From a virus: a DNA stretch of 64,000 nt. The stretch lies in IMG/VR virus record IMGVR_UViG_3300022743_000002, positions 1 through 64,000 of that record. One strand, written 5' to 3'. Shown here one piece after another: positions 14,929 through 40,811 of the stretch (position 1 is the first letter of the stretch; every line of letters starts with the position of its first letter). Below the pieces are notes generated by a model. That model did no database searches. It had not been told where the DNA came from and was given only the letters and a program-made list of their open reading frames with translations. The translations under genes were made by a program, and so were the position numbers.

Positions 14929-15549
14929 TTACTGCATGACGCGGGCGACGATGCTCTGGGGAATGGCTTCACCGCGGTTCAAGCAGCTTTCAGCCACGGC
15001 AATGTCTGTACCGGACAGGCGTCCTTCTTTCTGCGCGGCCAAAGCCTTCGCAAAAAACACATCGTGGCTCACGCCTGCCGGATCCGACTTCGCCATGGTG
15101 CCGGCACCAGGCTCCGGTTTCTCGACCACGGACACGACGGCTTTGCGGCCGCGGCCTTCTCCGGACAGCTTCTTGACGCTGTCGCTGAGCGACTTGATCA
15201 TCTCAGCCTGGCCTTTGATCAAGTCAATCGCGGATGCCATAGCCTTAGCCATGGTAGCCTCGCCCTTCTCGACCCGATCCTGCAGCGACTTCACCAAATC
15301 GGTGCCGTCCTGAGCTTCAACTTCCGTGCCGTCGTCAAGCGTAAACTTGAACGACTTTGCCATGGGCTTGTCGTCGCCGTCGTCGTCGCCGACAACATCA
15401 TCTGCATCACCATCCGAGCCGCCTTCCGCAGCGGCAGCTTGGATTTTTGATTCATCCTTACCGTCATCCGCCGGGAGCGCCTTGGTCATTGTTTCCTGAT
15501 CCGCACTGAGCTGACCCAGCTCAGCCATCAGCTTTTCAAATTGACTCAT
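14929..15549 (-). CDS. Putative scaffold protein
   Basis: 206 aa, acidic and helical, between protease and capsid; at least seven hydrophobic-x-K|S/A motifs (MTKA, MAKS, LVKS, MAKA, MIKS, MAKS, FAKA). Confidence 0.75.
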   Translation of the reverse strand: MSQFEKLMAELGQLSADQETMTKALPADDGKDESKIQAAAAEGGSDGDADDVVGDDDGDDKPMAKSFKFTLDDGTEVEAQDGTDLVKSLQDRVEKGEATMAKAMASAIDLIKGQAEMIKSLSDSVKKLSGEGRGRKAVVSVVEKPEPGAGTMAKSDPAGVSHDVFFAKALAAQKEGRLSGTDIAVAESCLNRGEAIPQSIVARVMQ

Positions 15550-27900: not shown

Positions 27901-28548
27901 CTTCAGCGTCATATCAGACGCCATGCGCCTCACCGTTGCGCCAACCTTGAAAGCCGTGCGAGGTGGAACCTCAAGCACTGAAGTGGTCACAAGGTCGTCG
28001 TATCTGTGCTCGCTCACGAGCGCCGTGATTTCTTTCCCGACCCTGTCCTTGAAGGTAACCACATCGCCAGGCTGGAACTTCGCCCTGGACGGTTTCGACT
28101 CCTGCACTGGCGCCTTGTCCGCAAACAGATCCGGCGTCTCGCCCTTCTCCGGCTCCTTTTCCGCCACGGCATCGAACATGGCCGACACTTCAGCGGGAGT
28201 TTTTCCGGCCAGCTTCGCCATTTCAGCGAATAGAGCCTGCTGCTGTCCTTCGGAAAGACCGGCGATTGTGGAACCAAGCAAGCGCAGGCCGCCATGGCGG
28301 GCGATGAATGCGTCCAGCTTGGAGCGCTTTACTGCCGGCGCTGGAGCATTGTGCTCGGCAAACATATCCAGCGTAGCGTGGTGCGCCGGCGCCGGTGCGC
28401 GCTTTACCGACACTTTCTGGATGCGCACATGGGCATCGACTAACGCGCCATCTTTGCGGACATGGGCCGCAACGTGGACGGGCGCGTCAAACAGATTGAA
28501 TTGGGATTTGGTAAAAAAGATGAGCATGTGACAGCCTTCTGGGAGCAT
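21940..28548 (-). CDS. DarB-like N6-adenine methyltransferase / SNF2 helicase fusion
   Basis: 2202 aa; EFYT, LEPSCATG, GNPPYG methylase motifs; DDVGLGKT, DEMH, TATP, QRNGRGLRQGN helicase motifs. Confidence 0.9.
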   Translation of the reverse strand: MLPEGCHMLIFFTKSQFNLFDAPVHVAAHVRKDGALVDAHVRIQKVSVKRAPAPAHHATLDMFAEHNAPAPAVKRSKLDAFIARHGGLRLLGSTIAGLSEGQQQALFAEMAKLAGKTPAEVSAMFDAVAEKEPEKGETPDLFADKAPVQESKPSRAKFQPGDVVTFKDRVGKEITALVSEHRYDDLVTTSVLEVPPRTAFKVGATVRRMASDMTLKHRAPAKPEPVKPPKAEVKPAREVDESDQDRSHREWREHYDRIVNLSAADLVREGTKDLERASNYGAQKIAAEKRKGWDGGSVNTALINSMQVDVDAIDAELKRRRDKRDAKAGKIKTVSAEKVQTQPAKPAEVENKPAPVLVVPHDPTAPFGVPAGTSKKKRLAINSDVVKRLADGGPYSDADRALFRQYSGNGGCGDSLNEFYTDPEVARGMWTAIAALGVTGGTALEPSCATGVFLHTAPAGFKVTGVELDPTSAAAATALHGDRHEIHTASLERFATSDDRQFDVVIGNPPYGPRGFLAKDDKKDISTAEAYFTDTALDKCKPGGIVALVVPTGIMDSKTNRSLRERLLTKGEFLGAQRMPNTAFEHSHTEVTTDVIYLRKRPDDVAGALGTVDQATLQKLGVWDAEFISGEYFTGRGASNVLGTMTEGWRAKAGMGNDITVEGSMDGVADAIADFTPESESAPAISVTMHHILGALGDDQKAKDRALSAAFRRPYANIAKVGDTKVVDGVTYVLQGDPPRWHSVDEYMQTAAISDAEALGVEIEMAKRGVVRDGLADRVRAYVEKHGNPNDSVDVKTAANVNKIIFNLLGAVNRKGELSDLVTGTVRKTESGFDATAQALALQHNGDTFDAAELADRLGKTVDEVEDQLAADQRYAFAVGGWTTMDAYLTGDLWLRLDAAKKELETNAHPELADKLRLQIERLEKTIDPKSLDDVDIQVNSAFIPTHILSEFMTWKLHDGPDANDWTKKERAIDVKFDSGVYFITGGNSYSTEYKALNAYLNRGTKDAKMMKEYRPVIDALNVEFKDWLCASAHRDAIEEKYNRSFRGFVAPEYSNEPIEVPGLNPNKSVRDWRWSSLRRSLATGKGIIADDVGLGKTLGGLLLARMAKVQGTTKRPVIVAPKSVLANWYSETQDWFPGSKVLTIGANFAKDKDGMLVGVDDTADERKRKYHDMTQNDYDFVIISEPSFEEIDITPERKEQYYSEDFWVQRGDKLDNVGDKRRKAIKENFEQSVAQREFSERTNAVYFEDLGIDMLIADEMHHQKNLYSARARFGDQPKFLGGQGLSNRALDFNMKARWIRETNGGKNVHGLTATPTKNSPLEVYSMLSHIAPEAFERIGIRNSEEFLDRFCEFVPDKVLSTKGDIEDATVVAGFKNMDELREIMSRYIDRRTAAEVGLKLPSRDDRMHLVDMTRAQQDAYAELRELAEESSGKKDATGDSHIFSIMDKMHKAALDLSILDPVRYAGAESPKYKELAKQCLEGAKEGGQIVFSELIESHDKIVAALVDAGFKKSEIGIINADVAKSSVKRQNIADKLNAGIFKVVIGNCTMAEGLNMQKTTTDIHHMDVPWDPATLQQRNGRGLRQGNNKEAVRIHTYLSKGSFDGYRYQAVSAKKDWQDILWNGGDKVENLARQGKVSRDEMRIMLAADPEAARAEFEKDKDEATKRFDAGKREDAQAQYVRFTEISRTYKSMKNRDSVSGQRLRQKIEAAKTALFNNAYWPAKSALDSVTDVLIHPQSGTVLAANQGMEFPDEGKMVVTGVNMRAGTVTMRRHANIGGGRDVTVPVDKLSDAKPFKFDAETEASEVGAAMTAQAEAKLNSLTSWNEVKVMPSAVLEKNHDLIQRQIKDGAKSHKFSMPYGAIPMVDKATGEIKMAESYEHAKLHDTHDYLLPTDAAKEKAIQAWMDERRGAKIGIQNVSKGSGRGRGSRSGASVSSAAREYKGASYTEKHINPMRGLLRELSGVSTHGIDSPLEREAKSRLATEQVQRIRRAPSALDAINELLPLGSLHGSREGYGADSSFYAKYPKQALAMAWARARHLGQLDATIPMRHGGHNDYAWSHAHGKTIHSALIRMARNSGHDDLADAFAATGERHGLSKVHTDTLEAMTHGPEYHKPSSRALEQIGKLAERAGVMDDTIGQLANKNIRLGGAFTPSSSYYNYGREDKNRKTVREVLDAQLDAQRHKEHQERLENQQAKEAA

Positions 28549-28554
28549 CCCCAG

Positions 28555-28570
28555 AGGGTAGCGTCACGAT
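28555..28570 (-). promoter_or_regulatory. Late-promoter motif
   Basis: ATCGTGAC-GC-TACCCT-N6-ATG. Confidence 0.8.
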
Positions 28571-28572
28571 GC

Positions 28573-30903
28573 TCAGCGCGGCGCCAGGAATACTACAGGC
28601 ATAGACTTTGTAATGTCTGGATTAGAGCCATCGAACTCGCCATTGTTGCCGATAGCCGATTTGATCTGCGTCGGATCAAAAACGACGTACTCAGCGGGGT
28701 AGTCACCGTTCTGGATGTGCCCGTAGCTCAAAATTACACCGTCGTGGCCCTTGGCGGCCAGTTCCTGCGTCCACTTCGCGGCAGCTTCATTGTCACCGCG
28801 GCGCTCGGCGAGCATCAGCCGCTGCTTGTCTTCCAGTGTGGCCTGATACGGGTTCTTTAGGCTCAGGTAGACAGGCATCACGTTGGGTGACGCGCCAGCC
28901 TTGAGGTTGGTGTAGCTGTTGGAGATTTCGGTGTCGTTGGTGAAGTAGAAGCCCTGACCGAGCCAGCCGTTGTCTTTTTTGTTGGCGTGGCCGTGCTTGA
29001 ACTCAGCGAAGTCATCAGCGGTTCCGTGATAAACGATCAACGGCTTACCATTCCCGTCAACCACTTTACTGCCTCGAAACCAGGTCTTGAACTTCGCGGT
29101 TTCGGTTGGATGCTGGAGCGCGGCCGGCTTCGGGGCCAGTCCAGCAGCCACAGCCTGCAACGCCTTCCTGGGGTCTACAAACTCCAATTTGGTGCCCATG
29201 TCGGTGTGACCGACGCGGATCAGGCTCTTGATGTGCGGGCGCACGGCGTGTGACGTGATGCCGAACACCTCGGCGGCCGCTGGAATGAACCACTTGAGCC
29301 CAGATGAGCCAGCTTTCAGGCCTAGCCGATTTAGGTCCATATCCGTGACTTCGCCGCCGGCCATCAACCGATCGCGCATGGCGGCCAGCGCGGTGGCGCG
29401 ATCGGCCTTGTTTTTGGCGGAACTCTCGCGGTTCGATAGCCACTGCTTGCCCTGCGCCGCAGCATCCTCCGGCTTCGCGTGGTACGCGCTCAAAATATCT
29501 TTGCCCGGGAGCTCGACCGCGTAGTGGCCAGCGATTAGCCCTTTGCCGCGCGACCAGGTTGTGCCCTCGGGGAAATCGGACAGCAGGTGGTCGTGCTCGT
29601 GCTCGCCCGCGGGCTCGGTGTGCTGGAGCTCGTCGGCGAACATATCTGGCGTGTGAGTTACCGCGTCCTTGCCGTTCAGCGGGCTCGGCCCCATCGGTTT
29701 GCCGCTCATGGGGCCGCCAAATAGGCTCATTTGCCCGGGCGTAGCATGCGGGCGCGCAGATCGACCCTGATACCCAGCGACGTTCACCAGACGACCGCCA
29801 CGCAGGTACGGGCCAACATGGGATTTGAAGAACAAGACCATGCTCTTGGCGATGGTGGCGCCGCCGGCCGTACCTCGGCTTTCCACGCCGTTGTCGTCGT
29901 TGAACTTCTTGGCGACCTTGATCAACTCCATCGCCGGCATGCCGATCTTGATGATGGGTAGCTGCTTGCCTTCGAGCGCAGCGACGGCCCAGCGGTGGTG
30001 ACCGTCGAGCACGCGATTGTCGGACGACACCAGAATGCGGGTTTTGGCGTCGTACCGGCCCGCCCGCGTCTCGTCCGTCAGGTAGTCCATATTGGCGGCG
30101 TTGTAGGTGCCCTGGGTCGGCTTCAGTTCGGACGGGTTCACCGTGGCCTCGGTCACGGAAACACCTGACTCACGCAGCCCGTTCAAGAACTTTTCTTTCA
30201 CGCCGCTCGGAACCTGGGGCATGTCATCCCGGCGGATGCCAAGCGACGGCTTGAACATTTCCGCGTACTGCTGGTGCCGCTGGCGCTTGTCTTCGTGGGC
30301 CTGCACCACAGTTCCATCGGAGCGGGTGTAGGTATCGACGTGGGCCTTCAGCAGCAGCGCCTTGATCATGGCAGGCTTGTCGATCGTGGCGCGCACCTTG
30401 GAAACGAACTCGGCCACCGGCATGGCGGTGATGGGGCCCAGGAAACGCGGGTCGGTGTAGTTGGCCAGAAATGCCTGCTTGGCGTCTTCCTCGCTATCGA
30501 ACCCGGCCATGGCCTTGTCTTCATCGTAGCGGGTCCAGTCGCCATAGGTGTTCTGGTGCACCACGTAGACCATGGGCGCGTCCGGGTTCGGGCCCATGTA
30601 GATATCGACCGGGTCACCATCCACGCCCATGGATCCGACCACCTCGCCGTAGTCGTAGGACATGCGGATTTCCCAGGCCTCGCCGGACCGGTTCACGCCG
30701 CGGCGCACGGATCCCGCCGGATTCTCAATTGCCAGCGTCAGTCCCTGCCATTCGATGCGTGGCTTCTTGTAGGCGCCCTCGCCGGCCTGGGCGGCACTGG
30801 GCTCGCCGGGGTTTCGGCGAACTTCGCCTTCCCCCAGGTCGGCAGGCTTGGCGGCGCCGCTCATTGCCTGTGTGACGGGGTGGGATTTGAGGAAAACGAT
30901 CAC
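28573..30903 (-). CDS. Polyvalent protein: inorganic pyrophosphatase-like, ParB-like and ADP-ribosyltransferase (ART-PolyVal-like) domains
   Basis: 776 aa; DYG..DGDPVD..DEDK; LKPTQ..VLDGHHRW; VYHGT..GFYFT..LKNP..HDGVI..EYVVFDPTQIKS. Confidence 0.85.
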   Translation of the reverse strand: MIVFLKSHPVTQAMSGAAKPADLGEGEVRRNPGEPSAAQAGEGAYKKPRIEWQGLTLAIENPAGSVRRGVNRSGEAWEIRMSYDYGEVVGSMGVDGDPVDIYMGPNPDAPMVYVVHQNTYGDWTRYDEDKAMAGFDSEEDAKQAFLANYTDPRFLGPITAMPVAEFVSKVRATIDKPAMIKALLLKAHVDTYTRSDGTVVQAHEDKRQRHQQYAEMFKPSLGIRRDDMPQVPSGVKEKFLNGLRESGVSVTEATVNPSELKPTQGTYNAANMDYLTDETRAGRYDAKTRILVSSDNRVLDGHHRWAVAALEGKQLPIIKIGMPAMELIKVAKKFNDDNGVESRGTAGGATIAKSMVLFFKSHVGPYLRGGRLVNVAGYQGRSARPHATPGQMSLFGGPMSGKPMGPSPLNGKDAVTHTPDMFADELQHTEPAGEHEHDHLLSDFPEGTTWSRGKGLIAGHYAVELPGKDILSAYHAKPEDAAAQGKQWLSNRESSAKNKADRATALAAMRDRLMAGGEVTDMDLNRLGLKAGSSGLKWFIPAAAEVFGITSHAVRPHIKSLIRVGHTDMGTKLEFVDPRKALQAVAAGLAPKPAALQHPTETAKFKTWFRGSKVVDGNGKPLIVYHGTADDFAEFKHGHANKKDNGWLGQGFYFTNDTEISNSYTNLKAGASPNVMPVYLSLKNPYQATLEDKQRLMLAERRGDNEAAAKWTQELAAKGHDGVILSYGHIQNGDYPAEYVVFDPTQIKSAIGNNGEFDGSNPDITKSMPVVFLAPR

Positions 30904-32060
30904 TTTGGTTCCTTGCGCGGCATGGCCGCCAGCTTGTCACGCATCCATTGCCCGAACTCCACATCGTCACCTGGCCGGTCCTGAATCGTCGGAACCCAGC
31001 GCCCACGGCAATGCGGGTGCACCAGGCCGACTGGCACCTGCCACATCTCCTCGGGCTCGCGCTCCTTGAACACGGACCCCACGCGCTTGCGTGGGCTGGC
31101 GCTTCGCCCAACGTTGGTTTTGCCCGGCCAAATCATGGTCTCCGGGTCCTTGTCCTCGCGGGCGGCGTCCACGACTTCCATGACGCGGCCGTCGATTTTG
31201 CGACAGAACGCACAGGCGTTTTTGTACTGCTCGACACGCTTGACCTTGGTGCCCATGGGTAGAGACGACACGTAGCCGGCGGTCTGTGCTTCGCCGGCCT
31301 CGGTCACGGCGATCCGCCGCCAGTCGCGGTTCAGCGTGCCGAACTGGTCGAGGAGCTTGGTCTCCAGACTCGACGACGGTGCCGGCAGTCCGAGCTCGCG
31401 CTCCGTGACGTGCTCGGCAATGACGCCACGCATGCGGTGCCGGACGTCATTGGCGATGTTGCGGACATTCTCGGCACAGCGGGTTTCAGCGTGAGCCATG
31501 GTAGCGCGCTGTGCGACGGTGCCGCCAAACGCCGCAATGGCCTCAGCGGCCGTGCTCGGCATGGCCGCCAGCAGCACGTCGGCCTGCTTGGCGTCGGCGG
31601 CCTCCATGTTGGCCTGCACGCGCCCCATGAGGCTGGCACGTGTCGACAACCAGTCGGCCTCGGTGCGCATGTCGTCTGCAGGCAGGTAGCGCTGCACCGT
31701 CGCGTCGACGGCAAGCATGTGGTCTTCCAGCGTCCAATCGGACGGCGGGAGGTGTTCGAGGTAGATATGGACCAGAGAGAGCTCGCTTTGCGTCCATCGC
31801 TCCATCATGCCGCCAGGGCGAATGATGCGCTCGCCGGGCTTGTGTCGGACGCCGGCGGTCCAGGCCTGAATCTCGGTGCGCACGGCGTCAAGGCGATCGA
31901 GACCGCGCTGCGTGAAAAGCTCGACCAGGCGACGCAGCAACGGGCTATCCATTGGCGCCCAGATGCCGTCGTCGTGGTCATGCGTGGACTTGCACAGGAA
32001 CTCCAGAGCGTCGTTTGTGACGCGCTCACCAAGTTCAATTAAATCGACGAACAAAGACAT
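30900..32060 (-). CDS. MuF-like head morphogenesis protein
   Basis: 386 aa; RIAVTE, ACAFC and HPHCRG motifs. Confidence 0.8.
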   Translation of the reverse strand: MSLFVDLIELGERVTNDALEFLCKSTHDHDDGIWAPMDSPLLRRLVELFTQRGLDRLDAVRTEIQAWTAGVRHKPGERIIRPGGMMERWTQSELSLVHIYLEHLPPSDWTLEDHMLAVDATVQRYLPADDMRTEADWLSTRASLMGRVQANMEAADAKQADVLLAAMPSTAAEAIAAFGGTVAQRATMAHAETRCAENVRNIANDVRHRMRGVIAEHVTERELGLPAPSSSLETKLLDQFGTLNRDWRRIAVTEAGEAQTAGYVSSLPMGTKVKRVEQYKNACAFCRKIDGRVMEVVDAAREDKDPETMIWPGKTNVGRSASPRKRVGSVFKEREPEEMWQVPVGLVHPHCRGRWVPTIQDRPGDDVEFGQWMRDKLAAMPRKEPK

Positions 32061-32066
32061 GCTGGC

Positions 32067-32082
32067 AGTATGCGATCACGAC
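32067..32082 (-). promoter_or_regulatory. Late-promoter motif for MuF
   Basis: GTCGTGAT-CG-CATACT-N6-ATG. Confidence 0.8.
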
Positions 32083-32252
32083 GAAAAGCCGGAGCGGTTT
32101 CCAGCCCCGGCGATCCGGCGCGACCCTGGCACGGCGCGTAAACGCCGGAAAGGAACCGACCTCCAACCCTCAATGGACGTCGGCGCCATGTCGCGCTGCG
32201 GCCTTTATATCCCGAATGAACCGCAAACGGTCACGCTCAAGCCAACACTAAC
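32083..32252 (-). ncRNA. Candidate structured ncRNA B (~170 nt, late promoter)
   Basis: Own copy of the promoter motif with no ATG at +1; nested stems; ends in a GC hairpin plus T4. Confidence 0.55.
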
Positions 32253-32258
32253 AATGGC

Positions 32259-32274
32259 AGTGTGCAGTCACGAC
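32259..32274 (-). promoter_or_regulatory. Late-promoter motif with no downstream start codon
   Basis: GTCGTGAC-TG-CACACT-N6-G. Confidence 0.7.
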
Positions 32275-32300
32275 AAAAAAACCCGGCACAAGGCCGGGTT
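32275..32300 (-). terminator. Rho-independent terminator
   Basis: AACCCGGC-CTTGT-GCCGGGTT followed by a T run. Confidence 0.85.
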
Positions 32301-32305
32301 AAAAG

Positions 32306-32570
32306 CTCCGACCCAGGGAGGAAAGGCCGGCCACTTGCGTGGGGGTTGATGGCGGCCGAAGGTGATCACCCTGCTATCGACCGGGAACCCCCAGCCGTTC
32401 GGCATCTTCGCCATCAAGAATGAGACCTTACCACTGGCTGCATCCGCGTTTAAGTAGATACACCATAATCTCATACTTGATGACCCTGCAAGCAGGCATC
32501 AAGGGCACCTAACGGGTACCAGTCGACGTGATTAAGTGCCGTCGCACGGAGTTGTCTACTCAGGTCCGAA
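32306..32570 (-). ncRNA. Candidate structured ncRNA A (~265 nt)
   Basis: Multiple 8-12 bp stems and an imperfect 5'/3' closing stem, directly followed by a terminator; no credible ORF. Confidence 0.55.
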
Positions 32571-32592
32571 AACTAATTCTAATCACAAATAA

Positions 32593-33189
32593 CTATATTT
32601 GTGCAATGCCGCGCAAATATATTTCATCAAAAATAGCATCGAGTACGGGGTGACGCTGGCTCATGGCCGTTACCACCTGGCGCGCATCGCTGTAATACTT
32701 GCGCTTTCTGTCTGCGCCCCAAGCCGGTGGCATAACCAGCAGGTCCCGCAAGTTAGCAGTCTTGTCTGCCACCTTCACGGCGGCCGCCCTGGGGCTCATG
32801 GTTTGCGCGTGGGCTACCTGCATCGCCAGCTTGTCTTCGGGCTTCACGTCTTCGTTCGTGAGCTCCGCCACGGCGTCGGCAACGTCATGACCAAATTCAG
32901 CCACCAGGTTTTCGTGGCTGACGCCGCAGTCCTCAATGGTGTCGTGCAGCAGAGCCGTGATCAGCGTGGCGTCATCGGTGACGCCAGCCTCATCGTGCAG
33001 GATTCGGGCGACTGCGCGCGGGTGTTCGATGTAGGGAACCTTGGGCGCGCCAGGCTGGCCCTTGCGGTACTGGCCGGTGTGGGCCCGCTCCGCGAACTTG
33101 TCGGCGCGCCTGACGTGAGGGGAAACGTAAACGCCATTGCGGCGGGTATGGCCCGCCACATGAACCGTTGATTTGAACAAGAGGATCAC
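32593..33189 (-). CDS. HD-domain (p)ppGpp hydrolase-like protein (SAH/Mesh1 family)
   Basis: AHTGQYRK, PYIEHP, ALLHDTIED, VKVADKTANLRD; N-terminal ILLFK|S tag. Confidence 0.88.
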   Translation of the reverse strand: MILLFKSTVHVAGHTRRNGVYVSPHVRRADKFAERAHTGQYRKGQPGAPKVPYIEHPRAVARILHDEAGVTDDATLITALLHDTIEDCGVSHENLVAEFGHDVADAVAELTNEDVKPEDKLAMQVAHAQTMSPRAAAVKVADKTANLRDLLVMPPAWGADRKRKYYSDARQVVTAMSQRHPVLDAIFDEIYLRGIAQI

Positions 33190-33398
33190 GCCTGATCCCT
33201 GGTCTCGGCCTTTTGTTCACCCATGTAGGGCTTCACTTCGTCGAGGGTCATGGGGTTGCTCAGCCTACGTACCCTGTCGACGTCGCCTTCGTAGGGCTTC
33301 CATTGGCCGGTCCGCTCTAGGTAGACCTCCATCTTGCCGCCGGCATCCCGGAAAACAGCCCCCTCGACCTCAAAATACTGCTCAGTTCCCATTTTCAC
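33186..33398 (-). CDS. 70 aa hypothetical protein between synthetase and hydrolase (candidate antitoxin/regulator)
   Basis: Overlaps both neighbours; function inferred from position only. Confidence 0.65.
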   Translation of the reverse strand: MKMGTEQYFEVEGAVFRDAGGKMEVYLERTGQWKPYEGDVDRVRRLSNPMTLDEVKPYMGEQKAETRDQA

Positions 33399-34980
33399 GC
33401 CCCTTCAAATTCCACAAGATCATTCTAGGCGTTGGCATAGATTTAGTCAAATTTGATGATTCATTCTGTTGTTGTTTCTCACCAGCCTTAGCTTTCTCCC
33501 AGGCATCACCGTAGAGAGACTCCTGCTCTTTCATGGCGGCGGCGTGCGTCTCACGGTCCTTGGCGTCCCATTTGCTTGTATCTGAGCCAACGCCATTCTC
33601 GCGATATTTACCTTCTATTGATCGCGTTGTCTCGTATGGCTTGTGGCCTTTTTCCTTGGCCAGCGTCATTGGCTTCACGTGCACCTGCATCTCGGCGAGC
33701 ATGCCGTTGGGTAGCCGCATGATCATGTTGATATCGCGGTAGCCGCCCGGCAATGGCTTGACCAGGTTGTTCTTGGGCTTCTGCGCCAGCTCGATGCCGG
33801 CCGCCTTGAGCTCGGCGAGCACCTTCGGGATTTGGGTGACGCCAGGCACTGCGATTGTGGCGCGCACCATGTCGCGCAGCTGCGACCAGTCGCCGTCGTA
33901 GTCCTGGGCGACCTTCTCCTTGGCGCGCTTCTCGCCCTTGAGCGGGCCCATGAACAGGTAGCCGCGATCGTCGTCCCAGTGCTCGGGCAGCATGTAGTCG
34001 GTGTCGGACAGGTCGGCCGGATTGCGGCCTTCCTTCTCGGCGTTGATCTTCTCCTCGTGCTGGGCGTGGTCCAGCGACTGCGGGCGCTTGCCGGTCACCA
34101 GACCAAGATTCTGCGCGACCTTGCTGAGCATATCGCTGTACTGCTTCAGGCCTTCCTCGCCCTTGGACTTCAGTTCATCCCATGACTGGACAGGCTGATT
34201 GACCTTGGTCGGCAGCTTATCGAGCTCTGAGGTATCGAATAGCGCGCGAGCGATCCCCTCGGCGCCGTCGGGGGCCGGCTTTGGCGTTCCCGGCGCGTCT
34301 ACCTGGTTGGGTTGCGTCTCCTGGTGCGGACTCGCGTCCGGCTTACCTTCGCCGCCCCAGTGGTGGGTAATTTTGTCATGCGTTACAAGGTGTTGGCCAC
34401 CGGCGCTGTCCCGGACACGCACGCCGTCCTTGCCGGATGCCGTTACCTCGCCGTGCCCCTTGTGCTCGCCATTGGCAAAGCCGACGTGCTGGCCGCGCTG
34501 GGCCGGCGGGCTACCCTGGTCAGTGCTGACCCACTTGGTAGTTTGAACGCCATTCTTATCAGTGATTACCTTCTTTTGCAGACCGGGTGCACCAGCGTAG
34601 GTTCCCGGCGCTGACGCCTTCATAAATAGCATGACGGGCCGCGTGTGCCCCATTGATTTAGCGACCATTGGGTCTTCCTTGGATTCGTTTGGTATTGCCA
34701 CAAATCGACGCCGGCCGGACTTGTCCTCGACCAGCATGCCATCCTCTCCTTGATCGACGACGGCGTATTTTTGCAGGGCCCGGGTCTTGTGACCAAGGAC
34801 CTTGTCCCATCGGACCGGGTGATGGCCGCCGTCAATCTCGACGGTTACGCCGTGCTTTCCGTGCGCCTTGACCAAGCCGGTGCGCGGTTGTCCGCGGTGG
34901 TGCACATACAGATGGTCGCCCACCTCGACGTCGTGGCGCGGCTCCGGCTCCGGGCGCGGCTTAGGCTTCTGGTAGGTCAT
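33382..34980 (-). CDS. RelA/SpoT-type small alarmone synthetase domain protein with N-terminal SH3/KOW-like modules
   Basis: GPLKGEKRAKEK, LRDMVRAT, GGYRDIN and AEMQVH synthetase motifs. Confidence 0.85.
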   Translation of the reverse strand: MTYQKPKPRPEPEPRHDVEVGDHLYVHHRGQPRTGLVKAHGKHGVTVEIDGGHHPVRWDKVLGHKTRALQKYAVVDQGEDGMLVEDKSGRRRFVAIPNESKEDPMVAKSMGHTRPVMLFMKASAPGTYAGAPGLQKKVITDKNGVQTTKWVSTDQGSPPAQRGQHVGFANGEHKGHGEVTASGKDGVRVRDSAGGQHLVTHDKITHHWGGEGKPDASPHQETQPNQVDAPGTPKPAPDGAEGIARALFDTSELDKLPTKVNQPVQSWDELKSKGEEGLKQYSDMLSKVAQNLGLVTGKRPQSLDHAQHEEKINAEKEGRNPADLSDTDYMLPEHWDDDRGYLFMGPLKGEKRAKEKVAQDYDGDWSQLRDMVRATIAVPGVTQIPKVLAELKAAGIELAQKPKNNLVKPLPGGYRDINMIMRLPNGMLAEMQVHVKPMTLAKEKGHKPYETTRSIEGKYRENGVGSDTSKWDAKDRETHAAAMKEQESLYGDAWEKAKAGEKQQQNESSNLTKSMPTPRMILWNLKGRENGN

Positions 34981-36722
34981 GATTGAATTCTGAACACCGG
35001 CAGGCCAAACGACTTGGCTATGTCCTGCTGATCATCTCCGGGCCTCTCCGTAGCCCCAGCATCATCGGGCGCCCCGAAGTCTTGCCCGCCCTGATCGTCA
35101 CCAAAATCCTGATCGCCGCCGCCGTCATCGCCGTCATCGGTCGACTGCCCAGGCTCAGCGCCAGGCTGGCCGTAGTCCTCTTGCTGCGGCATTGCCTCTT
35201 GTTGCCAGGCGCCAACCAGCGAGGGATTCAATGGAGCGTCACCCCACTTACCGTCGGCCTTGTCGACGCCGTCCTCGGCTCGGATCTCGTTGACGGTGCG
35301 CGTCATTTTTTTGCGCTCCCAGATCGTCTTTTCGTCTTCCTCGTCCAGGCCGGTGAACTGGAATTCGTACTTGTCACTGAACTCGCCAATGACGTACTCG
35401 CTCAGCGTGGACTCGAAATAGCTCAGCAGGGGGCGCAGGCCCTTGTCTTTGCTGTTGACGATCTTCTCCTCGGTGTCGTCTCCGCTCAGCGATGACGTTC
35501 CGGACGTGAAGCTCTCAAAATTGATTTCCTCGGGCGCAATGCCGTAGATCGCGCAGATGATGGATGACAAGAACGTCATCCACTTGGCGAACATGATTTC
35601 GTTGGCGGCGTTACCGAATTCCGTGAAGTCGGCTTTCGACTCCTGATCCTTGGACACCATGACGGGCAGCGTCCAGGCGTTATTGACGCCCTTGACCATG
35701 CCGTTCCAGTAGCGCTTAAAGGCGGCAACATCCTCGTCGCTGTAGTTTCCGTACAGGTTCAGCATGCCCTTGGGTATGGCGTTGCTGTCGAAAAATTTGG
35801 TGTTGTAGGTGAAGGCGTTCAGAAAGCCCGTCACCACGCGGATAAGCAGTTCCGTCTCGGACAGTCCGTAGCCGCCAGCAAGCACGTCGGTGCGTGGGTT
35901 GCGCGGCACATACACCAGGTCGTCATAGGTGTAGGCGCTGCGGATCTGGCCTTGCACGACCTGGAGGGCGAAAATCTCGTCTTCGCCTTGGTAGCCGTCT
36001 TCGCTGCACAACCGAATGGTGGCTCCGTCGACGGCGTACATGCCGTCCAGGCCGAGCGACTTGTCGCGCTTCCACTCGGTCTCAATCGGTGCGCTGTCCA
36101 TGGTGAGGCTGTCGCGCACCAGCTTCATCATGAAGTTTTGGAAGTTGTCGCGCTTCAGGCGCAGGCGCTGGCGGGGCTTGGTCTCCCAGCCGCTGTTGGT
36201 CACGAATGACTCCAGCAGCTTAATGGTGGCCTTTTCGTTTTCGTCGATGTTCTCCAGCTTTTCCTTGCTGGCGATCCTGAAACCCGACCCCTTGCCACCC
36301 TTCTGCGGCCGGCAAAACCTGGCCACCTGGCGCTGGCGCGTCATTATGACGGCGTTCAAAATCGGCGTTTGGTCCACCATGGCGCGCATGGCATCAAACG
36401 TGAATTGGCCGGGTCGCTCGAACCAGTCGCCGTTGATGTTGATCTGCAGGTCGTCCAGCCAGACCGACTGCATGCCGGGCTTCTTGTCTTTGATGGCATT
36501 CGACGGGAACGGGATGACGTTCTGCTTTTGCAGCGACTTCGCCATGGCCTGATCGTCCAGGTCACGGTTGATGTAGTCAATGATGGGCTGAATGTTCGCC
36601 GCCGGTATCAGGTCCGACAACGCCTTGGGCATGCTGGATTTTTGAAGCTCCGCCATGGCTTCAGTCCGCTCGTCGGCGGGCGCACGTGGATCAGCGAGTA
36701 TGGCGCGGGCAGCATCAGTCAT
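34977..36722 (-). CDS. Portal protein
   Basis: 581 aa; DGATIRL, GYGLSETE, PKGML, ICAIYGIAPEEIN, KGLRPLL and TVNEIRA portal motifs. Confidence 0.92.
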   Translation of the reverse strand: MTDAARAILADPRAPADERTEAMAELQKSSMPKALSDLIPAANIQPIIDYINRDLDDQAMAKSLQKQNVIPFPSNAIKDKKPGMQSVWLDDLQININGDWFERPGQFTFDAMRAMVDQTPILNAVIMTRQRQVARFCRPQKGGKGSGFRIASKEKLENIDENEKATIKLLESFVTNSGWETKPRQRLRLKRDNFQNFMMKLVRDSLTMDSAPIETEWKRDKSLGLDGMYAVDGATIRLCSEDGYQGEDEIFALQVVQGQIRSAYTYDDLVYVPRNPRTDVLAGGYGLSETELLIRVVTGFLNAFTYNTKFFDSNAIPKGMLNLYGNYSDEDVAAFKRYWNGMVKGVNNAWTLPVMVSKDQESKADFTEFGNAANEIMFAKWMTFLSSIICAIYGIAPEEINFESFTSGTSSLSGDDTEEKIVNSKDKGLRPLLSYFESTLSEYVIGEFSDKYEFQFTGLDEEDEKTIWERKKMTRTVNEIRAEDGVDKADGKWGDAPLNPSLVGAWQQEAMPQQEDYGQPGAEPGQSTDDGDDGGGDQDFGDDQGGQDFGAPDDAGATERPGDDQQDIAKSFGLPVFRIQS

Positions 36723-36728
36723 GCCTGA

Positions 36729-36744
36729 AGGGTAACGTCACGAC
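36729..36744 (-). promoter_or_regulatory. Late-promoter motif for portal operon
   Basis: GTCGTGAC-GT-TACCCT-N6-ATG. Confidence 0.8.
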
Positions 36745-36762
36745 ATTTTTTATCCCGGAGTG

Positions 36763-36792
36763 TTGCTTATTTTTGAGTAATGGCATTAGAAT
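36763..36792 (+). promoter_or_regulatory. Candidate sigma70 promoter for the plus-strand cassette
   Basis: TTGCTT-N18-TAGAAT upstream of an AAGGAG RBS. Confidence 0.5.
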
Positions 36793-36816
36793 TCGTCAAC
36801 ATTCACAAGGAGTTTT

Positions 36817-37059
36817 ATGCACACACCCGAACAAGCCAAAGGCCTTTGGTGCCCAATGGTGCGTATTGCGCGCCGCGAAGACCCGGACCCGAATGCCCGC
36901 ACCACCGTCGTCGCAGGCTGCAACACCGACGCCCTTGGCAAGGTCCGCGTACCCGCGTCCTGCCGCTGCATCGCCAACGAGTGCGCGATGTGGCGCTGGG
37001 CGGATGGTCCGGACGGCCTGGGGTACTGCGGGCTGGCTCCGCTACCCAAAACTGATTAG
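36817..37059 (+). CDS. Small Cys-rich hypothetical protein
   Basis: AAGGAG RBS; WCP..CIANECAMWRW..GYCGLA. Confidence 0.75.
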   Translation: MHTPEQAKGLWCPMVRIARREDPDPNARTTVVAGCNTDALGKVRVPASCRCIANECAMWRWADGPDGLGYCGLAPLPKTD

Positions 37060-37146
37060 CAAGCTGTTTTTATTTTGTATTTCCCCAGTGAAACTCTGGA
37101 GACGCCAATATCCCGGGCGCGAGTCGGGCGCAAATTACCTACCATC

Positions 37147-38058
37147 ATGTTTAAGAACGCAAGTGTTTTCAAAATCAAACTAACCCAGCACGCGCTGACG
37201 CAGACACTGAACGACGCCGCTGGCCGCGCACTTTTCCTGCCATGCTACCCAACTCAGGAGCGCTCAGTCGGCTGGGTTTCACCACGCGGCCATGAGCACG
37301 GCCCGCTGGTGGAGAACATTGGCGGGCACCTGATCATGCGCTTGATGATCGAAACCAAGACGGTGCCAACCCAGGCCATCGATGACGCCGTGGCTGCCAA
37401 GGTCAAGAAGATCGAGGAGACCACCGGACGCAAGCCCGGCAAGAAGGAAATGAGCGAGCTCAAGTCAGACGCGCGCCTGGCTTTGCTGCCAAACGCATTC
37501 GCGCAGCGCGCTGCCGTCTTTGTTTGGATTGACCGGGAAAACGGTCGGCTGGTGCTGGACGCCGCCGGCCAGAACCGCGTCGACGAGGTCGCCACGCAGC
37601 TAATCAAGCTGGTGGACGGCGTCGTCATCGGGTTCCTGACTACCCAGACGTCGCCGGCTGCCGCCATGACGATGTGGCTCAATGACCACGACGCACTCGC
37701 CAGAGACTTCAGCATTGGCCGGTCCGCCACGCTCAAGGCTACCGACGAGAGCAAGGCGGTCGTGCGTTACACACGCCACGGGCTGGACACCGACGAGGTC
37801 CGCCAGCATATCGCCCAGGGCAAGATAGCGACCAAGCTGGCGCTGACGTATCGCGATCGCGTGGCTTTCACGCTGACTGACGGCGGAGTGCTGACTGGGC
37901 TCGAATTCCTTGACTCCGTATTCGAGGAGCGCGCCGACACGGCCGCCGACAGCTTTGACGCCGACGTCGCCATTCTCACCGGGGAGTTGTCCAGGCTGAT
38001 CCCTGACCTGGTCGAGGAAATGGGCGGGGAGTTCGATGAAGAAGGCGGCGCAGCATGA
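37147..38058 (+). CDS. rdgC: Recombination-associated protein RdgC
   Basis: MFKNASVF start, SVGWVSP, LLPNAF, GKIATKLAL, FDADVAILTGEL. Confidence 0.9.
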   Translation: MFKNASVFKIKLTQHALTQTLNDAAGRALFLPCYPTQERSVGWVSPRGHEHGPLVENIGGHLIMRLMIETKTVPTQAIDDAVAAKVKKIEETTGRKPGKKEMSELKSDARLALLPNAFAQRAAVFVWIDRENGRLVLDAAGQNRVDEVATQLIKLVDGVVIGFLTTQTSPAAAMTMWLNDHDALARDFSIGRSATLKATDESKAVVRYTRHGLDTDEVRQHIAQGKIATKLALTYRDRVAFTLTDGGVLTGLEFLDSVFEERADTAADSFDADVAILTGELSRLIPDLVEEMGGEFDEEGGAA

Positions 38059-38270
38059 GTGAATCGGAGATTGAATCGCTTCGCTCTCGCGTGAGGGAAT
38101 TATGCAACCTCGTCCGAAAGGTGCACAAAGCCAAGGGCCGATACCACACCCAGCTGGCGATGTGCGACCTGTTTGACTCCGTGGGTCTGCCTAGTGAGCG
38201 CCCAGAGAAGGATGGCGCGAGCGCGCGCGAACACAATCGCCCCGACGACACTGAGGGCGGGAAAATATGA
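38055..38270 (+). CDS. Hypothetical protein
   Basis: ATGA-coupled to both neighbours. Confidence 0.65.
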   Translation: MSESEIESLRSRVRELCNLVRKVHKAKGRYHTQLAMCDLFDSVGLPSERPEKDGASAREHNRPDDTEGGKI

Positions 38271-38791
38271 TCACCTACAAGACCCAACCAGGAACCATAC
38301 CCCATCGAGCGGTCGCGTATCTGCGAACTTTGCCACCGGGAACGCAAAAAAGTACCGCAGAGCTGGCGCACGCCATTGACGCGGACCCGGAAACCATTGT
38401 GTTCACCATGCGCCCAGCGCGAGATGCCGGGATGGTCAATGCCGAATACGTGCCTGGCGACAAACGACGACTGTACTGGAGTCTTGGCAATGGATTGCAG
38501 CAGCCAACACCGGCCGAACAACCCGATAAGCAGCCCGCGCCTACACGCGAGGCGGCCAAACCAAAAGCGAAAAAAGAACCAAAAGCCGCGCCACCGGAAA
38601 GCTCCGAATTAGACGCCAACCCGCCGACGGCAGTAAAAACAAAGAGGACGCGAACCCCGAGGCTTCGCCGCAATTTCCGCGTTGGGTGGTTCACCGATGG
38701 CACGGCACATATTGAGATAGGGCAACATAAATTCGTCCTGGACAGCGTCGAGACGGCGGCCATCGCGGACATTTTCAAGAGGTTGAAATGA
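38267..38791 (+). CDS. Hypothetical protein with winged-HTH-like N-terminus
   Basis: STAELAHAIDADP..; coupled overlaps. Confidence 0.65.
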   Translation: MITYKTQPGTIPHRAVAYLRTLPPGTQKSTAELAHAIDADPETIVFTMRPARDAGMVNAEYVPGDKRRLYWSLGNGLQQPTPAEQPDKQPAPTREAAKPKAKKEPKAAPPESSELDANPPTAVKTKRTRTPRLRRNFRVGWFTDGTAHIEIGQHKFVLDSVETAAIADIFKRLK

Positions 38792-39072
38792 TTGAACCAA
38801 TCAAGGCCGGCGACATGGCCGAAGTCGTTGGTGGCCTGGGCAGGGCCAAAAGCCCGAACCTTGGGCTGATCGTTACCGTCGTGTCATTCCAGGGCGAGCA
38901 TAGCCAGCATGGCCGGATATGGCGCTGCAAGTCGCCGCACCTTCAGCAACTTGGCGATGCCGGGCAGTATGTAATCGCCGGATGGGCTGACCTGGCTCAA
39001 TCATGGCTTCGCAAGATTGAGCCGCCAAAGTTCAAAACCGCCACGTCGGCGAAGCTCGAAGCCAGTCATTAA
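38788..39072 (+). CDS. Hypothetical SH3-like phage protein
   Basis: IKAGDMAEVV...WLRKIEP; coupled start. Confidence 0.65.
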   Translation: MIEPIKAGDMAEVVGGLGRAKSPNLGLIVTVVSFQGEHSQHGRIWRCKSPHLQQLGDAGQYVIAGWADLAQSWLRKIEPPKFKTATSAKLEASH

Positions 39073-39116
39073 ATTACGCCGCCGGGTGCGTTACCCGGAT
39101 TTTCTAGGAGACTCCA

Positions 39117-39392
39117 ATGAATAAGACACAACTGATTGCAGCCGTCGCATCAGACACAAACCTGAGCACCGAAGATGCTCGCAAAGCCGTCGATGCTGTA
39201 ATTTCCAACCTATCGTCCGGCATGAGGAACGGGGACACCGTTACCATTCATGGCTTTGGCTCGTTCAGCGCAGCAGACAAAGCCGCACGCATGGGTCGCA
39301 ACCCAAACACCGGACAGGCGACAGAGATTGCCGCCCGCAAGGCGCCGCGATTCAAACCAAGCGCAGCGCTCAAGGCTGCTCTAAACGCCTGA
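39117..39392 (+). CDS. HU-family DNA-binding protein
   Basis: MNKTQLI..GFGSF..ARMGRNPNTG..PRFKPSAALK. Confidence 0.95.
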   Translation: MNKTQLIAAVASDTNLSTEDARKAVDAVISNLSSGMRNGDTVTIHGFGSFSAADKAARMGRNPNTGQATEIAARKAPRFKPSAALKAALNA

Positions 39393-39486
39393 TTTCGCAC
39401 CCTCCCACATCAAATTTACATGCCTGGCTTGCAAAAAGCTCAAGACCGGTATATTCGCCCTCCCCGAAGCGACGCGGGGAGGGGAA

Positions 39487-40332
39487 ATGGGCTCGTCAAT
39501 TCAATACAAACCAGGCACAAAGAGACGCGACGCCAGGCTTGGTGATGTTCATGTGCACGTATTTGAAGACGCCATCGGAATAGATTCAATCGTCGTACCA
39601 GAGCACTCCATTTTTATTCTGGCTCGCGGCGTTTCGATGGTCGACATTTTAGAATCCGGTGAGCTACCAAGGCACACATACGGAGCTGGGTCCATCAGGT
39701 TTCTCCCGGCTGGCACACACCTATCGTCGGTCGATGTTTCTGCGCCCTACACAGAGACGATGATCCGCGTTCCGGAAAGCGCGTTCCGCCAGGCCGCCCG
39801 CGACAAAATTTGCTACAACTCACTGCAGTGGAGCTTTGTGAGGGCGCCAGCTGAGAAGACGTTCGGCGTCGCCCAAACGCTAGCCAATGTAGCCATGGCT
39901 GAGAATCCATCCCCGCTGTTTGTAGACGCCGTAATCAATGCGCTTTGCATTGGCGTCATGTGCACCAACATGGACCGGACCTATGAGGCCACGCGCCAAG
40001 TTCCGGGCGGGCTGTCGCCAGAGCGGCAGCGTCGCGTCGTCGAATTCATTGAGAAAAACCTATCGGAGACAATCACGCTATCCGACGTGGCTCATGTCGC
40101 CGCGCTGAGCCCGTTCCATTTCAACCGGGCATTCCGCGCATCGATGGGCACAACGCCATCGAGGTATGTCATGTCCATGCGGGCGTTAAGAGCCAAGCGG
40201 ATGCTGTGCGACCGCACAATGCAAATCGCCTGCGTAGCGATGGAGTGCGGATTCAGCAACCAAAGCCATTTCACCACGGCCTTTAAGAAGGCAACCGGGA
40301 TGACGCCGGCAGAGTGGCGCCGCAATAACTGA
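39487..40332 (+). CDS. AraC-family transcriptional regulator
   Basis: C-terminal double HTH: LSPFHFNRAF..G..P and CGFSNQSHFTTAFKKATGMTP. Confidence 0.92.
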   Translation: MGSSIQYKPGTKRRDARLGDVHVHVFEDAIGIDSIVVPEHSIFILARGVSMVDILESGELPRHTYGAGSIRFLPAGTHLSSVDVSAPYTETMIRVPESAFRQAARDKICYNSLQWSFVRAPAEKTFGVAQTLANVAMAENPSPLFVDAVINALCIGVMCTNMDRTYEATRQVPGGLSPERQRRVVEFIEKNLSETITLSDVAHVAALSPFHFNRAFRASMGTTPSRYVMSMRALRAKRMLCDRTMQIACVAMECGFSNQSHFTTAFKKATGMTPAEWRRNN

Positions 40333-40420
40333 GTCACAAGCTGTTTTATATGTGACGCCAAGTTCGCGCCACCATTAGCTTTTCGCGTGTTTTCCGTTTT
40401 CTCGTGTGATAGCCGGGCGC

Positions 40421-40789
40421 TTATCGGGCGCCAGTTACGCGCTTTTCACCGTCGTATTTTGCCTTTGCGTCCTTCAGCGGCTGCTGGCGCTTCTTTAGCT
40501 CCATGTGCGCATAGTGCACCTCGTCGATGTACTGTCCGCCCTTTTTGTCGTTGCCCATTGCGTAGGCGTGCTTGGCCGCCTCTTTGGCATCCTTGATCAC
40601 GTAATGGAGCTGGTCTTCGCTGTAGGTCGCAAATTTGCCCTGGGTCCGGCTGTGCCAGTTTTCCTCGTCGCGCCAGTCTTTTTTTGGTTTGGCGGCCTGC
40701 CGCTTGTCGTCATGCGCACCCACAACGGAGCCGTCCTTGCGCGTGAACGTATCAATGTGCGACTTGAAAAATAGGGCGAGTGCTTTCAT
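40421..40789 (-). CDS. 122 aa basic protein carrying the shared tag
   Basis: MKALALFFK|SHIDTFTRKDGSVVGAH; has its own late promoter. Confidence 0.8.
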   Translation of the reverse strand: MKALALFFKSHIDTFTRKDGSVVGAHDDKRQAAKPKKDWRDEENWHSRTQGKFATYSEDQLHYVIKDAKEAAKHAYAMGNDKKGGQYIDEVHYAHMELKKRQQPLKDAKAKYDGEKRVTGAR

Positions 40790-40795
40790 TCCCGC

Positions 40796-40811
40796 ATTTT
40801 GCGATCACGAC
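40796..40811 (-). promoter_or_regulatory. Late-promoter motif overlapping the TerL stop codon
   Basis: GTCGTGAT-CG-CAAAAT-N6-ATG. Confidence 0.8.

What the first reader, a model, noticed from the sequence alone, without database searches (positions are those of the whole stretch)
28420..40765. Basic beta-hairpin module placed just after the predicted cleavage sites
Seen: HVAAHVRKDGALVDAHVR (DarB-like), HVDTYTRSDGTVVQAH and HVGPYLRGGRLVNVAGY (776 aa), HVAGHTRRNGVYVSPHVRR (hydrolase) and HIDTFTRKDGSVVGAH (122 aa). Looser variants are KKVITDKNGVQTTKWV (synthetase) and ARWITVHPNG (helicase). Inference: after cleavage this becomes the new N-terminus and could bind packaged DNA or act as an ejection signal, a second half of the address system.
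Basis: partly seen in the sequence, partly recalled or inferred. Interest (0 to 1): 0.72.

Follow-up and report, generated by a model that had tools for sequence, protein, structure and literature searches.

The report
Cleavage-site hairpin on phage head cargo
An uncultured ~88-kb phage and its relatives put the same uncatalogued 20-residue beta-hairpin directly after a probable head-protease cutting site in front of many unrelated enzymes that are probably carried in the virus head, so injected proteins may be readable from sequence, though what the hairpin does is unproven.

Summary
In this 95%-complete phage genome, exactly five stretches match the module. Consensus: K|[S/A]-H-[VI]-x-x-Y-T-[RK]-K-D-G-T-x-V-x-x-H-[DE]-D-K-R.

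- **Link to the cut site:** in 84 related loci a hairpin-only profile finds 41 distinct copies. Every one has K-[SAGT] upstream: 28 directly, 3 at 1-2 residues, 10 DarB-like ones at exactly 10 residues.
- **Cut after Lys:** this is supported by homology. The related Staphylococcus phage capsid protein is deposited in a form starting at S25 after K24, the column of this phage's K27|A28.
- **Spread:** a profile search finds 1768 protein clusters, mostly polyvalent or effector proteins.
- **Virion link:** in Yersinia phage fHe-Yen8-01 the hairpin protein is annotated "particle associated".

- The module is only weakly basic.
- The two "looser variants" are not members.
- The core hairpin also occurs in bacterial secreted proteins and eukaryotic kinases.

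No Pfam or NCBIfam model exists. Function is unresolved. A docking role in head loading is my best guess (about 0.35); a DNA tether or ejection role is possible (about 0.22). The scan noted similar cassettes on other DNA before (e1-5990824, e1-5985754).

The parts
40700..40777 (-). 122-aa protein: leader (residues 5-9, hydrophobic run ending in K) + S + canonical hairpin (residues 11-30), then a helical domain
   Evidence: Profile E=7e-21. AF2: residues 1-38 pLDDT 45-56 with short strands at 15-16 and 22-23; residues 39-120 form a confident three-helix bundle.
33103..33186 (-). HD hydrolase (198 aa): N-terminal leader (residues 2-6) + S-T-V + basic hairpin variant (residues 10-29) running straight into the HD domain
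   Evidence: Profile E=8e-11. Pfam HD_4 starts at residue 31.
30283..30360 (-). 776-aa polyvalent protein, junction 1 (InPase to ParB-like): doubled K|A sites around a short hydrophobic run, then canonical hairpin (residues 188-207)
   Evidence: Profile E=1e-20.
29761..29838 (-). 776-aa protein, junction 2 (before the ART-PolyVal module): A-K|S, hydrophobic run, K|S, then a divergent hairpin variant (H-V-G-P-Y-L-R-G-G type)
   Evidence: Weak profile match, E=0.001, over the leader and first strand only. The variant is conserved in at least 6 relatives.
28417..28524 (-). DarB-like 2202-aa protein: leader (residues 9-14), K|S, a Q-x-x-L-F-D clamp-motif-like spacer (nt 28486-28497), then hairpin (residues 25-44)
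   Evidence: Profile E=2e-4. The 10-residue spacing is identical in 10 relatives.
30886..30900 (-). 776-aa protein: N-terminal leader followed by S-H but no hairpin (InPase module)
34549..34632 (-). 532-aa protein: internal leader (residues 117-121) and the I-T-D-K-N-G element. A conserved, different element, not a member of the hairpin family
   Evidence: No profile match at E<=10.
21512..21568 (-). 1518-aa helicase: N-terminal leader (residues 8-12) and the W-I-T-V-H-P-N-G element. Conserved start of the helicase module, not a member of the hairpin family
   Evidence: No profile match.
15310..15360 (-). Scaffold protein: acidic beta-hairpin directly after its invariant K65|S66 site. An analogue, with homology unproven
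   Evidence: AF2 strands 67-70 and 76-79, pLDDT 63-80. hhalign P=0.022. HMM scores are not above shuffles.
14792..14821 (-). Major capsid protein N-arm with the predicted maturation site K27|A28
15546..16457 (-). Prohead protease (303 aa), the presumed enzyme cutting after Lys
   Evidence: phrog_1028, E=3e-34.

Best explanation
The element is the retained half of a portable two-part junction module carried by virion cargo (polyvalent or effector) proteins of PHB04-like myoviruses.

Part one is a short hydrophobic leader ending in K|[S/A]-H, cut by the prohead protease. Part two is a roughly 20-residue beta-hairpin with a D-G turn and a phage-specific H-[DE]-D-K-R tail. It stays at the new N-terminus of each released enzyme.

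Shown:
- the module exists and is under protein-level selection;
- it is always coupled to a K-[SAGT] site;
- it is attached to many unrelated effector domains;
- it is confined to phages with this head-gene set;
- one carrier is annotated as particle-associated.

Inferred from homology: cleavage after Lys.

Inferred, and the weakest step: the hairpin is a flexible docking handle that binds a conserved procapsid component. It helps load the cargo into the head before or independently of the cut, so the leader and the hairpin are two separable address elements.
For: - 41 of 41 family hairpins have K-[SAGT] upstream, 28 directly adjacent.
- Shared amino acids in the window's copies mostly use different codons, so selection acts on the protein.
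- Among 1768 clusters, carriers hold InPase, ART-PolyVal, NUDIX, Acb1, Zeta toxin, RadC-JAB and GNAT domains.
- A relative has a leader + hairpin + RadC-JAB module inserted ahead of the helicase.
- The hairpin is better conserved than the leader, down to loci whose portal is 26% identical.
- fHe-Yen8-01 gp131 has only M-L-K before the hairpin, yet is annotated as a particle-associated protein.
- AF2 shows the hairpin does not pack on its own domain.
- The module is present in PHB04, Dolphis, Mecenats66 and fHe-Yen8-01. It is absent from Thermus and Herelleviridae relatives that share the portal and capsid lineage.
- The phage-specific tail differs from the cellular T-R-S-x-P tail.
Against: - No cleavage, packaging or binding has been measured for any carrier.
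- The docking partner is unknown.
- The scaffold-hairpin resemblance is not significant.
- Scaffolds of some hairpin-bearing phages lack a clear hairpin.
- Some tagged modules have no hairpin, so it is not required for every cargo.
- The same core residues occur in cellular secreted proteins and eukaryotic kinases. That argues for a generic property, such as a stable hairpin or polyanion binding, rather than a head-specific partner.
- The 'particle associated' label is a database annotation whose data I could not see.
Confidence: 0.35

Rival explanations
1. The leader alone is the address. After the cut, the hairpin acts on the mature protein: it tethers the cargo to packaged DNA, or leads it into the portal and tail channel so that it leaves with the genome.
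For: - The hairpin becomes the N-terminus and is not excised.
- Three of the five window copies are basic, +1 to +4.
- The cellular form of the core has a strongly basic tail and once precedes a secreted SNase nuclease.
- Precedent: P1 DarA-Hdf N-terminal domains contact DNA and leave the head with it (PMC12810830).
- The same core in unrelated contexts fits a ubiquitous ligand such as nucleic acid.
Against: - The canonical phage form is near neutral (mode 0 to +1) with a conserved acidic pair.
- Modules without a hairpin, such as InPase, would lack the signal.
- No DNA-binding family or fold was matched.
- A closed capsid needs no retention signal.
Confidence: 0.22
2. A purely structural element. 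An autonomously stable hairpin next to the scissile bond presents the site to the protease, and/or caps the new N-terminus against exopeptidases. Its sequence is a convergent 'ideal hairpin'.
For: - Strict adjacency K-[S/A]-H-V in 28 of 41 copies.
- The scaffold also has a predicted hairpin right after its K|S.
- Near-identity to the T4 foldon hairpin core (Y-V-R-K-D-G-E-W-V) and to cellular terminal hairpins suggests convergence on a stable D-G hairpin.
- In secreted bacterial proteins the hairpin likewise follows the signal-peptide end.
Against: - Capsid, portal and other scaffold sites are conserved without a hairpin.
- DarB-like proteins keep the hairpin 10 residues away from the site.
- Conservation of H16 and the D-D-K-R tail exceeds what hairpin stability needs.
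- AF2 gives the hairpin low confidence.
Confidence: 0.18
3. A foldon-like oligomerisation switch. Intact leader plus hairpin assembles into small oligomers that co-assemble with the core. Cutting the leader dissolves them.
For: - The top PDB profile hit is the fibritin foldon hairpin.
- The module length resembles the 27-residue foldon.
- Tandem arrays of 3-6 hairpins exist in other proteins.
Against: - The foldon hit has E=0.8, i.e. chance level.
- No multimer prediction was possible with these tools.
- There is no evidence of oligomers.
Confidence: 0.07

Closest known systems
Capsid targeting sequence (CTS) of phage T4 internal proteins IPI-III and Alt, removed by prohead protease gp21 (reviewed in PMC3012670, PMC9026906)
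   Same: - A short N-terminal peptide on unrelated proteins, ending at the prohead protease's site.
- Carriers are injected effectors, including an ADP-ribosyltransferase.
   Different: - T4 cuts after Glu (L/I-x-E) and the address lies wholly in the removed peptide.
- Here the cut is after Lys.
- The best-conserved part lies after the cut and is retained.
- The module also recurs inside polyproteins at every domain junction.
Phage-type polyvalent proteins (Iyer, Burroughs, Anand, de Souza, Aravind 2017, PMC5512222)
   Same: - Same domain repertoire (InPase, ART-PolyVal, ParB-like, MTase-helicase).
- Same head-module context beside the portal and a MuF-like gene.
- Predicted packaging and injection.
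   Different: - A term search of that paper found no description of a junction hairpin or a Lys-specific processing site.
- It invokes MuF or internal peptidase domains for packaging and processing.
Phage P1 Dar antirestriction system (DarB, DarA, Hdf; PMC12810830, PMC9024508)
   Same: - A DarB-like MTase-helicase is carried in the head.
- N-terminal processing by the prohead protease.
- DNA-contacting N-terminal parts.
   Different: - P1 loading depends on the DarA-Hdf pair bound to the shell, and no such pair was found here.
- No shared sequence tag or hairpin is known in P1.
T4 fibritin foldon
   Same: The nine-residue hairpin core is nearly identical (Y-x-R-K-D-G-x-x-V).
   Different: - The match is at chance level (E=0.8).
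- Foldon is a C-terminal trimerisation unit of a fibre, with no cleavage context.

Membership tests
T4-type cleavable capsid targeting sequence | Short N-terminal peptide shared by unrelated head proteins | tested here: met
   8 leaders in the window and 104 in related loci.
T4-type cleavable capsid targeting sequence | Ends at the recognition site of the phage's own prohead protease, a site also used in capsid and scaffold | tested here: met
   K|[S/A] is conserved in the capsid protein, scaffold and portal. The homologous capsid protein's deposited mature form starts after K24. Actual cutting was not measured.
T4-type cleavable capsid targeting sequence | The removed peptide is sufficient for packaging, and nothing after the cut is needed | not testable with these tools
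   Needs reporter fusions. The conserved hairpin after the cut, and carriers with only M-L-K before it, argue that this feature may not hold.
T4-type cleavable capsid targeting sequence | Carriers are present in virions | tested here: inconclusive
   fHe-Yen8-01 gp131, gp129 and gp130 are annotated as particle associated. The primary data were not seen, and there are no data for this phage.
Phage polyvalent proteins (Iyer et al. 2017) | Two or more effector domains in one polypeptide | tested here: met
   776-aa protein: InPase + ParB-like + ART-PolyVal. 2202-aa protein: MTase + SNF2 helicase.
Phage polyvalent proteins (Iyer et al. 2017) | Encoded with portal-terminase head genes | tested here: met
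   They lie between the portal (34977-36722) and the protease (15546-16457).
Foldon (fibritin C-terminal trimerisation domain) | Significant sequence or structure match and trimer formation | tested here: not met
   Profile hit E=0.8 over 11 residues. Trimerisation is not testable here.
Any catalogued protein family for the hairpin itself | Match to a Pfam, NCBIfam or PHROG model | tested here: not met
   No hit even at E<=10. Only sub-threshold DUF5666 matches, on tandem copies.

The most novel reading that the evidence does not exclude
The leader-K|S-hairpin cassette is a sequence-readable loading label, a phage counterpart of encapsulin cargo-loading peptides. It marks the whole injected protein set of a widespread clade of ~90-kb myoviruses. 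The hairpin docks to a conserved site inside the procapsid and is sufficient to load foreign proteins. The same ancient mini-hairpin was recruited from bacterial secreted proteins.
Probability: 0.25. Interest if true: 0.78.

Novelty: new variant of a known kind. Interest (0 to 1): 0.6.

Why it matters
If the cassette really marks head-loaded, protease-released proteins, the injected effector set of these phages can be read straight from genome sequence. That set includes anti-restriction, anti-CBASS, ADP-ribosylating and alarmone enzymes, and it covers more than a thousand metagenomic protein clusters.

The cassette would also show how polyvalent proteins are cut into separate enzymes. It would offer a small portable tag for loading foreign proteins into capsids of laboratory phages.

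The core hairpin is also a widespread motif with no Pfam or NCBIfam model, found in bacterial secreted proteins. That is worth describing in its own right.

Tried and rejected
- **Recombination box or recent duplication:** rejected. The window's copies share amino acids but mostly not codons.
- **Chance motif:** rejected.
- **Known family:** none in Pfam, NCBIfam or PHROGs. No solved structure apart from a chance-level foldon hit.
- **Other look-ups:** the ESM Atlas gave nothing usable. Foldseek of the 122-aa model found no match at E<=0.001.
- **Cargo hairpin homologous to the scaffold hairpin:** hhalign picks exactly that pair, but only at P=0.022 and probability 2%. HMM scores on 32 scaffolds are not above shuffled controls. 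I keep this as an analogy only.
- **Looser variants as family members:** rejected.
- **Helicase N-terminus swapped for a hairpin in a relative:** wrong. It is an inserted extra module.
- **Literature:** searches for the motif and for virion proteomics of named relatives found nothing.
- **Left open:** the one hairpin carrier with a Peptidase_S78_2 domain was not identified.
Full report
**Setting**

The window is most of an 87,750-base virus record that is 95% complete. Its head module runs on the minus strand:
- large terminase, 40805-42925;
- a 122-aa protein, 40421-40789;
- a plus-strand island, 37075-40332;
- portal, 34977-36722;
- a 532-aa protein;
- an HD hydrolase, 32593-33189;
- a 386-aa protein;
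- a 776-aa polyvalent protein with InPase, ParB-like and ART-PolyVal parts, 28573-30903;
- a 2202-aa DarB-like methylase-helicase, 21940-28548;
- a 1518-aa helicase, 17033-21589;
- prohead protease, 15546-16457;
- scaffold, 14929-15549;
- major capsid protein, 13448-14899.

Named relatives are ~90-kb myoviruses of Gram-negative hosts, with portals 52-63% identical: Bordetella PHB04, Aeromonas ST4, Pseudomonas Dolphis, Yersinia fHe-Yen8-01 and Morganella Mecenats66. Thermus phages and Herelleviridae are distant relatives.

**The observation**

A six-frame regular expression for the hairpin hits five times, against 0.25 expected from shuffles. One for the hydrophobic leader ending in K-[S/A] hits eight times, against 0.41 expected. 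All hits lie in the real genes. A profile built from 29 copies finds exactly those five places in the whole genome, at E from 7e-21 to 1e-3.

The synthetase and helicase 'looser variants' are conserved in orthologues. They do not match the profile, so they are different elements.

**Coupling to the cut site**

I fetched 84 related loci through the portal and the capsid protein. A hairpin-only HMM, carrying no information about the leader, finds 41 distinct hairpins. Every one has K-[SAGT] upstream:
- 28 directly adjacent;
- 3 at 1-2 residues;
- 10, all DarB-like, at exactly 10 residues, after a Q-x-x-L-F-D spacer.

The leader also occurs without a hairpin, for example at InPase N-termini, and at the extreme C-termini of some proteins.

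Shared amino acids in the window's copies mostly use different codons, so selection acts on the peptide and not the DNA.

**Is K|[S/A] the protease site?**

- The scaffold alignment has invariant lysines followed by S or A at several positions.
- All 29 distinct family capsid proteins have K-[S/A] at one aligned position in the N-arm (K27|A28 here).
- The portal C-terminus keeps x-M-x-K|[S/A]-F-G-L-P-V-F.
- The capsid protein is homologous to solved Herelleviridae capsid proteins. The Staphylococcus phage protein is deposited once as 463 residues (5lii) and once as 439 residues (9row). By the alignment offsets, the shorter chain begins at S25 directly after K24, the column of this phage's K27|A28.

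I take this as good indirect evidence for a Lys-specific maturation cut. No cut has been measured in this clade. Cargo sites differ slightly from structural ones: the residue after S/A is usually His in cargo and Leu or Phe in structural proteins.

**Anatomy**

The consensus from 181 phage-type copies is H(81%)-[VI]-x-x-Y(85%)-T(90%)-[RK]-K-D(98%)-G(100%)-T-x-V(100%)-x-x-H(91%)-[DE]-D-K-R.

Net charge averages +0.8. In the window it is 0, -1, +1, +3 and +4, so the module is only partly basic.

AF2 with a 39-sequence alignment models the 122-aa protein as a confident three-helix bundle (residues 39-120). Its N-terminal 38 residues have low confidence, with only short strands at 15-16 and 22-23. 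The module is therefore a flexible appendage that does not pack on its own domain. The helical domain has no significant structural match.

**Distribution**

The profile finds 1768 representative clusters at E<=1e-3 among 1.84 billion proteins. Of these, 253 reach E<=1e-10, and many hold 2-6 copies.

In the best 150, 187 of 255 hairpins follow K-[SAGT], usually after 3-4 hydrophobic residues.

Carriers hold InPase (13 of 89 scanned), ART-PolyVal (8), NUDIX, Acb1, Zeta toxin, RadC-JAB, GNAT and DUF6900. This is the polyvalent and counter-defence repertoire.

One close relative has a whole extra module (leader, hairpin, RadC-JAB) inserted ahead of the helicase module. This shows the cassette moves together with its domain.

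Whole-record searches find the module in PHB04 (3 copies), Dolphis (2), Mecenats66 (1) and fHe-Yen8-01 (1). They find none in Thermus phage Lalka27b, Bacillus phage CP-51 or a Bastille-like Herelleviridae phage.

In Dolphis the cargo genes sit upstream of the terminase rather than between portal and protease.

A degenerate DNA pattern scan of viral contigs also found the module next to portals only 26% identical to this one. There the hydrophobic leader is reduced to an ordinary site while the hairpin is intact.

**Virion association**

In fHe-Yen8-01 the hairpin carrier gp131 starts M-L-K|A-Q-I-K-G-Y. It is annotated 'particle associated protein', as are the adjacent 2146-aa ADP-ribosyltransferase toxin and gp130. 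This is the depositors' annotation and I could not see the data.

Because the predicted cut is after Lys, tryptic proteomics cannot reveal it.

**The core hairpin is not phage-specific**

Sixty-eight of the 255 hairpins lack the site. They form tandem arrays (V-x-V-x-G-Y-T-R-x-D-G-T-x-V-x-x-[HY]-x-R-S-x-P) in bacterial proteins with signal peptides, and in C-terminal-kinase proteins of a sponge and a cercozoan.

A pattern scan of one genome per species gave 71 loci. Sixty-five are of this cellular type. They lie either at the extreme C-terminus of small Bacteroidota lipoproteins, or directly after the signal peptide of secreted proteins, once ahead of an SNase nuclease.

No Pfam or NCBIfam model covers either form. 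The only solved look-alike is the T4 fibritin foldon hairpin, at chance level.

**The scaffold**

Scaffolds of the family carry an acidic hairpin directly after the invariant K65|S66. AF2 predicts strands 67-70 and 76-79 with pLDDT 63-80.

Profile-profile comparison picks exactly this pair of hairpins, but only at P=0.022. HMM scores are not above shuffles. Some hairpin-bearing phages have scaffolds without a clear hairpin. I treat this as an analogy, not homology.

**Mechanism**

What the element is seems well supported: a portable junction cassette of head cargo, with a Lys-specific cut in front and a retained hairpin.

What the hairpin does is not settled. I favour a docking or loading role (about 0.35) for these reasons:
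- it is more conserved than the leader;
- it has phage-specific features beyond those of a bare hairpin;
- it is confined to this head-gene clade;
- it does not pack on its own domain;
- it occurs with essentially no leader on a protein annotated as virion-borne.

A DNA tether or ejection role (about 0.22) fits the generic distribution and the P1 DarA-Hdf precedent, but not the near-neutral charge.

A purely structural presentation or cap role (about 0.18) and a foldon-like switch (about 0.07) remain possible.

**Comparison and novelty**

The closest known systems are the T4 capsid targeting sequence, the polyvalent proteins of Iyer et al. 2017, and the P1 Dar system.

The cassette differs from the T4 tag in three ways: it cuts after Lys, it keeps its best-conserved part on the mature protein, and it recurs at internal domain junctions.

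A term search of the polyvalent-protein paper found no description of it.

Earlier notes of this scan describe very similar cassettes on other DNA (e1-5990824, e1-5985754). The kind has therefore been seen before within the scan, though I found no published description.

Noticed in passing
window 15798-15880 (protease residues ~208-240) and 14740-14821 (capsid protein residues ~23-55): The C-terminal part of the prohead protease repeats the capsid protein's N-arm, including the K|A site and the A-G-Y-G-T-D ... Q-S-L-D motif. It may be a shell-docking mimic that brings the protease into the procapsid.
   Followed up: no
window 28486-28497 and 10 related loci: DarB-like proteins keep a Q-[FL]-x-L-F-D peptide between the cut site and the hairpin. 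It resembles the beta-clamp-binding consensus and would lie at the very N-terminus after the cut.
   Followed up: partly
window 28573-28608 and 33385-33450: The 776-aa and 532-aa proteins end in T-K|S followed by a short hydrophobic peptide. Relatives have bare leaders at extreme C-termini. These may be removable C-terminal peptides or remnants of gene fission.
   Followed up: partly
window 37075-40332 (+ strand): A plus-strand island interrupts the head module between the 122-aa gene and the portal. By eye it includes an HU/IHF-like protein (39117-39392) and an AraC-like regulator (39487-40332).
   Followed up: no
L125-L195 (genome contigs), e.g. L133:6828-7232, L147:6855-7208, L173:6448-7413: A 24-residue terminal hairpin (H-V-x-G-Y-T-R-K-D-G-T-Y-V-x-P-H-T-R-S-A-P-R-R-R) with no Pfam match. 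It is widespread at the C-termini of Bacteroidota lipoproteins and directly after signal peptides in Proteobacteria, Planctomycetota and Acidobacteriota.
   Followed up: partly
P0031, P0053, P0103, P0009: Sponge (Corticium candelabrum) and cercozoan proteins carry 3-6 tandem copies of the same hairpin. In the sponge proteins they precede a C-terminal Ser/Thr kinase domain.
   Followed up: partly
L049:2361-8048: A close relative's helicase gene has gained a 380-residue leader + hairpin + RadC-like JAB module at its 5' end. It is joined through a plain T-L-A-K|A site.
   Followed up: yes
window 34977-35020 (portal C-terminus): The portal ends in a conserved K|[S/A]-F-G-L-P-V-F-R-I-x peptide behind an acidic low-complexity stretch, across about 35 relatives. 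This suggests C-terminal trimming of the portal.
   Followed up: partly
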